Positions 9,073-9,616 of a DNA stretch of 64,000 nt are shown one piece after another. Both the position numbers and the translations under genes were made by a program. Source of the stretch: Octopus vulgaris (taxonomy: Eukaryota); NCBI GenBank assembly GCA_951406725.2, contig OX597832.1, positions 66,402,001 to 66,466,000 on the forward strand. The letters run 5' to 3'. The notes beneath the pieces were generated by a model that saw only the letters and a list, made by a program, of their open reading frames with translations, was not told the DNA's origin and made no database searches. The first letter of the stretch is position 1. Each line of letters begins with the position of its first letter.

Positions 9073-9616
9073 AGCAATAATAAATCTCTGAACGAGATGT
9101 AAACAGTAACCGCTCGACAACGTAGTATCATCCTCTCCAGCTGGCTTTAGGCACACATTCTGTGCTCTTATGGTATTTGCAAAGGGAGGGCGGGGTTAAA
9201 AGCTACAGTGACACACCCCCTTAGTGGTTAGCCATATTGAGATGGCTAGTATACTTCACGTTGTCGAGCGGTTACTATTTACATCTCGTTCAGAGATTTA
9301 TTATTGCTTGCAGACAGTTTTTCGAAATCAGTGACGGAAGTTACTAGAAAAATCCATAAGTATTTGCAAACAGGTCTTCCTTTAATCGTAAACCGGTGAT
9401 TACCGTACGTTGACAAGAGGCAAATACCTCGAAACTGCAGTCCGTGCGTATCACTTAGGTTTACGAGAGAAGGATGACCTCCCTTTGCAAATACCATACG
9501 GGCACAGAAAGTGTGCCTAAAGCCAGCTGGAGACGATGATCTCCTGGGGCTAAAAGCTACAGTAACACCCACCCTTAGTGGTTAGCCATATTGAGATGGC
9601 TAGTATATTTTACGTT
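9073..9616 (+). mobile_element. Non-coding hammerhead-bearing element (retrozyme/Penelope-pLTR-like): ~1.2 units of 354 bp on + (9192-9616) with an inverted partial copy (9073-9189), inside (TA)n
   Basis: A ~70-bp direct repeat starts at 9192 and 9546. 9073-9122 is the reverse complement of ~9258-9308, and ~9125-9189 of ~9477-9541. Hammerhead at 9396-9454; (TA)n on both flanks. Confidence 0.8.
9396..9454 (+). ncRNA. Type I hammerhead ribozyme, U3-A8 core variant
   Basis: Stem I CGTACG/CGTGCG (extends to GTGA/TCAC), core TTGACAA, stem II GAGG-caaata-CCTC, GAAA, palindromic stem III ACTGCAGT, GUC cleavage triplet with predicted cut after 9442. Confidence 0.8.

What the first reader, a model, noticed from the sequence alone, without database searches (positions are those of the whole stretch)
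9073..9616. Second, diverged family member with the same U3-A8 hammerhead and colinear covarying hairpins
Seen: a 354-bp unit with a plus-strand hammerhead TTGACAA-GAGG(caaata)CCTC-GAAA-CTGCAG-TC. Downstream modules align in order with the 32 kb element despite low overall identity: TGACCTCCCTT; hairpin GGCAC-agaaagt-GTGCC vs GATAC-agtttgt-GTATC; GGAGA..TCTCC vs AGGC..GCCT followed by GG(G/A)GCTAA; GCCATATT-gag/agt-ATGGC; TCTC..AGAGA. Stem II (GAGG/CCTC vs GGGG/CCCC) and the stem III palindrome (ACTGCAGT vs ACGCGT) covary. Inference: selection acts on the fold of the whole ~360-nt RNA, defining a structured RNA family that may be undescribed in this lineage.
Basis: partly seen in the sequence, partly recalled or inferred. 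Interest (0 to 1): 0.85.

Follow-up and report, generated by a model that had tools for sequence, protein, structure and literature searches.

The report
Hammerhead retrozyme with Penelope insertion footprint
This is one copy of a non-coding, ~355-base mobile element with thousands of relatives in the genome; it carries a hammerhead motif predicted to self-cleave, and its insertions show the footprint of Penelope-type retrotransposons, which likely copy it, so the open question of what moves animal retrozymes becomes testable.

Summary
Window 9073-9616 is one insertion of a non-coding 354-bp element with a type I hammerhead (U3-A8 core, predicted cut after 9442). It is homologous to the 32-kb element (55% identity; z 7 without the ribozyme). 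Both belong to one clade with at least 4274 hammerhead-bearing matches in G000. Helices outside the ribozyme covary (7 double changes on inner branches, null 2.0, 2/2000).

Copies are 5'-truncated and end at two fixed sites, +174 and +220 (A) or +235-238 (B) from the cut. In 31 of 33 inverted insertions one arm ends at each site. Targets are (TA)n or carry 10-15-bp duplications. Young intact Penelope-like elements (PLEs) in G000 insert the same way but share no detectable sequence with the unit.

U3-A8 is not family-defining: C3-G8 and U3-G8 subfamilies exist, and U3-A8 is in print. Verdict: a non-LTR retrozyme, a known class, likely mobilised in trans by a PLE. Cleavage, circles and expression are untested. 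What I did not find in print is the PLE footprint on a retrozyme and the whole-unit covarying fold.

The parts
9073..9616 (.). Whole insertion of family A: inverted arm plus forward arm, between (TA)n runs
9073..9189 (-). Inverted 5'-truncated arm: unit +36..+98 joined to about +163..+220; ends at the long 3' end (with tail); no hammerhead
9192..9616 (+). Forward arm: starts at unit +104, runs 1.2 units, ends at the short 3' end (+174); 9192-9262 and 9546-9616 differ at 6 of 71 bases
9263..9308 (+). Tail, 46 nt between the short and long ends; predicted to form one arm with hairpin 9283-9297
9330..9345 (+). Hairpin H6 (AGTGAC/GTTACT); two pairs changed on both sides between families A and B
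9360..9494 (+). Predicted rod that extends hammerhead stem I; holds the conserved but not invariant TGACCTCCC at 9475-9483
9404..9448 (+). Type I hammerhead: U3-A8 core, G10.1-C11.1, loop 2 CAAAUA, palindromic stem III ACUGCAGU; predicted cut after 9442
9501..9517 (+). Hairpin H1 (GGCAC/GTGCC), covarying
9521..9551 (+). Hairpin H2: outer AGCC/GGCT and inner GGAGA/TCTCC, covarying
9569..9600 (+). Hairpins H3 (9569-9581) and H4 (9585-9600) just before the short end; H4 conserved without double changes
8930..9073 (.). (TA)n/(TG)n/(TA)n run, left target flank
9616..9691 (.). (TA)n run, right target flank
32025..33258 (-). Family B insertion: minus arm of 2.6 units of 362 bp (hammerheads at 32651 and 32289) ending at the long end; plus arm 32958-33258 ending at the short end; (TA)n on both sides

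Best explanation
This is a non-coding ~355-base mobile element of the non-LTR retrozyme kind, with thousands of related copies, whose insertions carry the Penelope footprint and which is likely reverse-transcribed and integrated in trans by a resident Penelope-like element. Shown: unit, hammerhead sequence, copy number, head-to-tail arrays, 5' truncation, two fixed 3' ends, one end per arm in inverted insertions, 10-15-bp target duplications or (TA)n targets, covarying helices, intact PLEs with the same anatomy. Inferred steps: (1) arrays are transcribed as multimers; (2) neighbouring hammerheads pair through the palindromic stem III and cut out monomers; (3) monomers are ligated to circles; (4) a PLE RT-GIY-YIG protein binds the folded RNA, makes a staggered break 10-15 bp wide in AT-rich DNA and primes from both DNA ends, one at +174 and one at +220; (5) the cDNAs run past the cut site for less or more than one unit and are joined at their truncated 5' ends. 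This locus has one hammerhead, so it is likely a dead-end product; arrays would be the sources.
For: Ends: 31 of 33 inverted insertions among 46 independent A and B insertions have one short and one long arm, none has two of a kind, 2 have a long and an odd end (my tally); A2, A3, A4 and B2-B6 mostly use the same sites, C less cleanly. Target duplications of 9 bp or more (one mismatch allowed) in 14 of 19 loci without microsatellite flanks, against 10% of 342 mismatched flank pairs; 12 of 13 inverted ones. Opposite arms of one locus share variants 7-8 times more often than different loci (B 0.41 vs 0.06, A 1.63 vs 0.21 per 100 sites). PLE1 (781-aa RT plus GIY-YIG) ends at +73 or +113 into (TA)n in 24 of 24 outer ends, and both inverted copies have one of each (my tally); PLE2 also shows two ends. 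This is the published PLE anatomy (PMC8557442), and the tail lies between two RT start sites in vitro (PMC11167929). Stem III is palindromic in 101 of 114 distinct copies, with 9 different palindromes. A 10-hammerhead array lies at L180. C3-A8 mismatches are rare and scattered: 64 (control 11) against 598 C3-G8 and 393 U3-G8 of 4274.
Against: No sequence link to any of three PLE families examined: blastn and nhmmer hits in PLE loci map to flanks or give only 15-23-nt matches; no PLE frame is attached to retrozyme loci except nearby separate PLE pieces; no recurring non-unit continuation after the tail in the first 100 of 655 matches. Tails (46 and about 60 nt) are longer than the PLEs' 40 nt, and the long ends of A and B are not at homologous columns. 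Only 2 of 6 single-arm loci show a target duplication. Circles, cleavage and transcription were not observed. In print, 8 of 9 Xenopus retrozyme dimers did not cleave in vitro (10.64898/2026.07.22.740005), and hammerhead cleavage was not needed for PAc insertion in vitro. Rfam Hammerhead_1 scores 21.7 bits, below the gathering score of 34. Loci are best hits, not a random sample.
Confidence: 0.8

Rival explanations
1. The units are orphan pseudo-LTRs or 3' fragments of an autonomous PLE not yet found, moved in cis with it.
For: Same insertion anatomy as PLEs. In Xenopus 24 of 57 retrozyme families were homologous to known TEs, nearly all PLEs, at their termini. Only 150 of 6136 GIY-YIG candidates and 120 of 25319 RT-EN candidates were scored.
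Against: Units run head to tail without a frame, up to 10 hammerheads. The longest stop-free stretch in the A unit is 88 aa. Seven loci fetched to look for a frame between or beside units had no PLE frame. After the tail, recurring sequence was always the next unit.
Confidence: 0.08
2. A SINE-like element moved by a LINE (RTE or R4/Dong type), with inversions made by twin priming.
For: 5' truncation, 10-15-bp duplications and microsatellite targets also fit LINE priming (own knowledge). RT-bearing LINE fragments lie in the window.
Against: No poly(A) or repeat tail. Two fixed ends split one per arm. The arms overlap in sequence, unlike twin-priming products (own knowledge). The window LINEs end in (AAT)n, not (TA)n. 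No tRNA gene in the window.
Confidence: 0.05
3. A satellite or foldback DNA spread by DNA-level recombination; the hairpins matter as DNA or not at all.
For: In the L180 array 5 of 9 units are identical and 2 others are identical to each other, which points to local DNA amplification.
Against: Most copies are dispersed, 5'-truncated, with fixed 3' ends and target duplications. G-U pairs are common in the conserved helices. The sense strand folds better than the antisense. The hammerhead core keeps its 3-8 pair.
Confidence: 0.03
4. The fold is kept because the RNA serves the host, or replicates RNA-to-RNA like a viroid, and retrotransposition is a by-product.
For: Retrozyme circles are abundant in mussel and coral, and RNA-RNA replication was raised as a possibility (PMC7229834).
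Against: Ladder-like subfamily succession and decay on end branches fit a selfish element. No hammerhead on the antisense strand. No host-function evidence here.
Confidence: 0.04

Closest known systems
Non-LTR retrozymes (Cervera and de la Pena 2020, PMC7229834; e.g. Mytilus 350-390-bp repeats, axolotl Rtz_331/353)
   Same: Unit size, type I hammerhead with short palindromic helix III, tandem copies, no frame, GC under 50%, target duplications over 4 bp, coexistence with PLEs.
   Different: U3-A8 and U3-G8 cores beside C3-G8. A fold kept between lineages 55% identical. Tail and inverted arms are not described in the parts I read (parts 2-4 of 6; supplement unreadable). Circles are shown there, untested here.
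Vertebrate non-LTR retrozymes as non-autonomous PLEs (Li, Clavereau, Pollet, bioRxiv 10.64898/2026.07.22.740005)
   Same: Same conclusion: retrozymes are non-autonomous PLE derivatives.
   Different: Their evidence is co-occurrence and pLTR homology, in 31 vertebrates, 3 insects and a coral. Here the evidence is insertion anatomy, and no pLTR homology was found.
EN+ Penelope-like elements, Neptune/Nematis type (PMC8557442; PAc mechanism in PMC11167929)
   Same: 5' truncation, partial tandems, inverted 5' arm, tail at one end, (TA)n targets, hammerhead upstream of the tail.
   Different: No RT-EN frame. Tail 46-60 nt rather than 30-40 nt. Canonical 6-bp helix I with extended rod rather than a minimal hammerhead.
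U3-A8 minimal hammerheads of Schistosoma Cercyon PLEs (PMC4209133)
   Same: U3-A8 covariation in a PLE-linked type I hammerhead.
   Different: Those minimal motifs have a long helix II and a short helix I, mostly as single motifs. Here helix II is 4 bp, helix I 6 bp, and loop 2 matches the Rfam Hammerhead_1 loop.

Membership tests
Non-LTR retrozyme | Short repeat unit of 150-450 bp, GC under 50%, no coding frame | tested here: met
   354-357 bp, GC 0.435, longest stop-free stretch 88 aa
Non-LTR retrozyme | Canonical type I hammerhead in each unit (helix I 6 bp, helix II 4 bp, short palindromic helix III) | tested here: met
   By sequence, with the U3-A8 variant
Non-LTR retrozyme | Tandem copies with two or more hammerheads | tested here: met
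   Met by the family (10 hammerheads at L180) and by the 32-kb element; this locus has only one
Non-LTR retrozyme | Target-site duplications longer than 4 bp | tested here: met
   10-15 bp in 14 of 19 loci without microsatellite flanks; not discernible at this (TA)n locus
Non-LTR retrozyme | Self-cleavage of transcripts | not testable with these tools
   Needs in vitro transcription
Non-LTR retrozyme | Expression as unit-length circular RNA | tested here: inconclusive
   Only contig runs with a guessed RNA label were offered; contigs cannot show ends, strand or circles
Non-autonomous PLE | 5' truncation, partial tandems, inverted 5' arm | tested here: met
   33 of 46 independent A and B insertions are inverted; 5' starts vary
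Non-autonomous PLE | Tail present at one end only | tested here: met
   31 of 33 inverted insertions; tail 46 nt (A) and about 60 nt (B), longer than the published 30-40
Non-autonomous PLE | (TA)n or AT-rich target | tested here: met
Non-autonomous PLE | Sequence similarity to the pLTR of an autonomous partner | tested here: inconclusive
   None with three PLE families examined; most PLE candidates were not scored
Autonomous PLE | RT plus GIY-YIG frame | tested here: not met
   No attached frame
Rfam RF00163 Hammerhead_1 | Score at or above the gathering threshold of 34 bits | tested here: not met
   21.7 bits, full-length match 9404-9448, E 0.0038 in a 191-base search
Minimal PLE hammerhead (min-HHR) | Helix II 7-8 bp, helix I 4-5 bp, extra base before stem II | tested here: not met
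   Helix II 4 bp, helix I 6 bp plus extension
Viroid-like RNA with symmetric rolling circle | Ribozymes in both polarities | tested here: not met
   No antisense hammerhead in either window element

The most novel reading that the evidence does not exclude
The clade parasitises Penelope machinery by shape alone. It has no parent pLTR left in the genome, and its covarying fold presents two priming sites to a dimeric RT-endonuclease that uses exactly one site per end of a staggered break on the same RNA circle. The hammerhead is also tuned to be weak: C3-G8 lineages carry a C.A mismatch at the base of stem II (21 of 26 copies), U3-A8 lineages a paired base (72 of 75), U3-G8 a G-U base (10 of 12), so lineages trade attenuating changes to let circles form yet survive.
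Probability: 0.3. Interest if true: 0.75.

Novelty: new member of a known kind. Interest (0 to 1): 0.52.

Why it matters
Which enzyme moves animal retrozymes is open in print: PMC7229834 names PLEs as a strong candidate, and the 2026 preprint argues from co-occurrence and pLTR homology. Here the insertions themselves carry the PLE signature, and the same genome holds two young intact PLE families, so the published in vitro PLE assay can be applied directly. The strict one-short, one-long rule sharpens the PLE integration model beyond 'tail often at one end'. The subfamily series gives natural C-G, U-G and U-A hammerhead cores in one fold, a ready set for testing ribozyme tuning. The class itself is known, which caps the surprise.

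Tried and rejected
Whole-window Rfam scan: the 150 listed of 203 matches were microsatellite noise, with no hammerhead among them.

Expression: no RNA holder listed; four contig runs with a guessed RNA label (X1, X2, X4, X9) carry contigs on the stretch, which is no evidence either way.

Autonomous partner with a homologous pLTR: not found in 54 PLE loci or stretches (some overlap), in seven candidate loci, or among 100 of 655 tail continuations. The matching test for family B was not run.

Independent origin of U3 in A and B: favoured by the best trees, but the AU test did not reject a single origin (p 0.32, 0.17, 0.105).

Within-lineage double changes outside the core: not significant (64 and 100 of 1000 nulls). 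Inner versus end branches: p 5.5e-4 pooled within lineages (29 of 44 vs 38 of 111, stem I extension included) but p 0.16 on the cross-lineage alignment (21 of 40 vs 25 of 68). One search used structures predicted with a covariance bonus and is not relied on. Ten loci with junctions or truncations were dropped.

TGACCTCC as an invariant motif: rejected; the C subfamilies were found by requiring it. Long-range pairing of TGACCTC with the tail: one covarying column only, left open. tRNA-derived SINE: no tRNA gene in the window. Earlier scan notes: none.

Full report
1. The observation. The plus strand holds a type I hammerhead at 9404-9448: CGTACG-TTGACAA-GAGG-CAAATA-CCTC-GAAA-CTGCAG-TC-CGTGCG, predicted cut after 9442. 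A scan of both strands of the window found three such motifs: this one and two in the 32-kb element. Rfam Hammerhead_1 aligns over its full length at 21.7 bits, below its gathering score of 34; loop 2 equals the Rfam consensus loop. The units (A, 354 bp; B, 362 bp) align at 202 of 368 columns, z 9.6 against 1000 shuffles and z 7.0 without the core. Both fold at z of about -6 to -7 into a rod carrying the hammerhead plus a cluster of hairpins.

2. What the locus is. It is one insertion between (TA)n runs. A minus-strand arm runs 9189-9073 with an internal deletion. A forward arm runs 9192-9616, 1.2 units, with one hammerhead. G000 (2.8 Gb) gave 3375 first-look candidates for A and 1284 for B, 40 scored each. 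A hammerhead pattern has 2357 exact matches against 0 for the control. A looser pattern anchored on TGACCTCC has 4274 against 117; this is a lower bound, since subfamily A5 lacks that motif. An array of 10 hammerheads lies at L180. Runs under five organism codes hold the sequence; I laid runs of two of them.

3. Insertion anatomy. Numbered from the cut site, A copies end at +168-175 or +216-226 and B copies at +168-178 or +233-238. The 60 loci reduce to 46 independent insertions, 33 of them inverted. By my tally 31 of 33 have one short and one long arm, none has two of a kind, and two have a long and an odd end. These loci were best hits to the unit, not a random sample. A2, A3, A4 and B2-B6 mostly use the same sites; the older C copies are less clean. 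Of 36 A-lineage loci, 17 had microsatellite flanks and were set aside. Of the other 19, 14 show a 10-15-bp target duplication, against 10% of 342 mismatched flank pairs; 12 of 13 inverted and 2 of 6 single-arm loci. Opposite arms of a locus share variants 7-8 times more often than different loci, so both arms likely come from one template variant. Partial tandems, an inverted 5' copy and a tail at one end are the published PLE anatomy (PMC8557442, passages and Introduction). The tail lies between two RT start sites in vitro, and both DNA strands are cut and extended (PMC11167929, parts 1-2 of 4).

4. Candidate drivers. G000 holds young PLEs with uninterrupted frames: PLE1 (781 aa, ORF1 479 aa) and PLE2 (775 aa, ORF1 557 aa), plus a third family seen as a 574-aa piece. 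PLE1 and the third family score RVT_1 and GIY-YIG; the PLE2 C-terminal piece scores GIY-YIG. All three have YLDD and a CxxxxCxxC linker, the Neptune/Nematis mark. PLE1 ends at +73 or +113 from a hammerhead-like motif into (TA)n in 24 of 24 outer ends, and both inverted copies have one of each (my tally). PLE1 and PLE2 carry U3-A8 hammerhead-like motifs with weak stem I. No homology between retrozyme units and these pLTRs was found. No PLE frame is attached to retrozyme copies. Most PLE candidates were not scored, so a homologous parent is not excluded.

5. Selection on the fold. Ten helices read from this copy alone, counted on 16 units aligned by sequence only, are 91.4% paired. Of 49 pairs, 22 change on both sides; 0 of 500 shuffles reach this; slid partners give 31-48%. 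That shuffle ignores relatedness, so I counted events on trees. Outside the ribozyme, 34 pairs show 7 double changes on inner branches of a 29-unit tree, null mean 2.0, 2 of 2000. Within lineages, inner branches keep pairs more often than end branches (29 of 44 vs 38 of 111, p 5.5e-4). Against: the same contrast is p 0.16 across lineages; within-lineage double changes are not significant; H4 and the tail hairpin show none. Stem III is palindromic in 101 of 114 distinct copies, with nine different palindromes. A monomer hairpin does not need a palindromic loop, so this points to pairing between two hammerheads, as proposed for such motifs (PMC4209133, parts 1-2 of 4).

6. The core. Of 4274 matches, 598 are C3-G8, 393 U3-G8 and 64 C3-A8; the rest, mostly U3-A8, were obtained by subtraction. 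The C3-A8 matches are scattered over subfamilies with no amplified group. The best tree is a ladder C, A5, A3, A2 (C3-G8), then A (U3-A8) and A4 (U3-G8), with B on a long separate branch. Independent origin in A and B is favoured but not established (AU p 0.105-0.32). U3-A8 is known in nature and reported active in vitro (PMC3088659, passages) and occurs in Schistosoma PLEs. The base of stem II tracks the core: C.A in 21 of 26 C3-G8 copies, paired in 72 of 75 U3-A8, G-U in 10 of 12 U3-G8. These reflect only a few lineage events.

7. Mechanism. Inferred: arrays give multimeric RNA; paired hammerheads cut monomers; a host ligase closes circles, as shown with RtcB for axolotl and mussel retrozymes (PMC7229834, parts 2-4 of 6); a PLE protein cuts AT-rich DNA with a 10-15-bp stagger and primes from both ends at the two sites; the truncated cDNAs are joined head to head. 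Arms longer than a unit show a template continuous across the cut site. That could be a circle or an uncut multimer; my data do not separate them. Cleavage, circles and transcription are untested. Eight of nine Xenopus dimers did not cleave in vitro (bioRxiv 10.64898/2026.07.22.740005, parts 1-3 of 5).

8. Novelty. The class is known, and the 2026 preprint already calls animal retrozymes non-autonomous PLE sequences. Searches for hammerheads or retrozymes in octopus or cephalopods, and for tail and inversion anatomy in non-autonomous hammerhead elements, returned no description of this clade or of a PLE tail on a retrozyme (listings). The library lacks most subscription papers. The PMC7229834 supplement was unreadable, the preprint's supplements are closed, I did not open those of PMC8557442, and Repbase and Dfam could not be searched; any of them may cover these families. 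Verdict: new member of a known kind, with unusually direct genomic evidence for its driver. Interest 0.52.

Noticed in passing
window 18074-28528 (+) and 35944-40976 (-): Several decayed LINE-like pieces with RT and restriction-like endonuclease motifs (recalled as R4/Dong type), several ending in (AAT)n; best kept at 19921-23625, RVT_1 E 2.5e-23.
   Followed up: partly
L131-L144, L202-L206: Young two-frame PLEs in many copies with uninterrupted 781-aa or 775-aa RT-EN frames and an overlapping upstream ORF1; hammerhead-like motif with U3-A8 and weak stem I about 130-150 nt before the ORF1 start. The youngest PLE2 copies read GCAA where GAAA is expected.
   Followed up: partly
L129, L138, L139, L185, L195, L201: Five or six of 54 PLE loci or stretches hold a separate retrozyme insertion within a few kb; possibly shared (TA)n targets; no density control was run.
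   Followed up: no
L180:1260-4880: Units of the 10-hammerhead array fall in an a,b,a,b,b,b,c,b,d pattern, pointing to local duplication after insertion or to a dimeric template.
   Followed up: partly
window 9475-9483 with 9293-9302: RNAalifold pairs the conserved TGACCTC with the tail; one column covaries between A and B, and the A5 changes would keep G-U pairs.
   Followed up: partly
window 9127-9128 and 32958-33258; L062, L072, L073, L086: Arms often carry internal deletions or short strand switches near the inversion point, suggesting template jumps across the folded RNA.
   Followed up: no
L178: Four A4 copies spaced about 1.38 kb apart with LINE RT pieces between them, a local tandem duplication.
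   Followed up: partly
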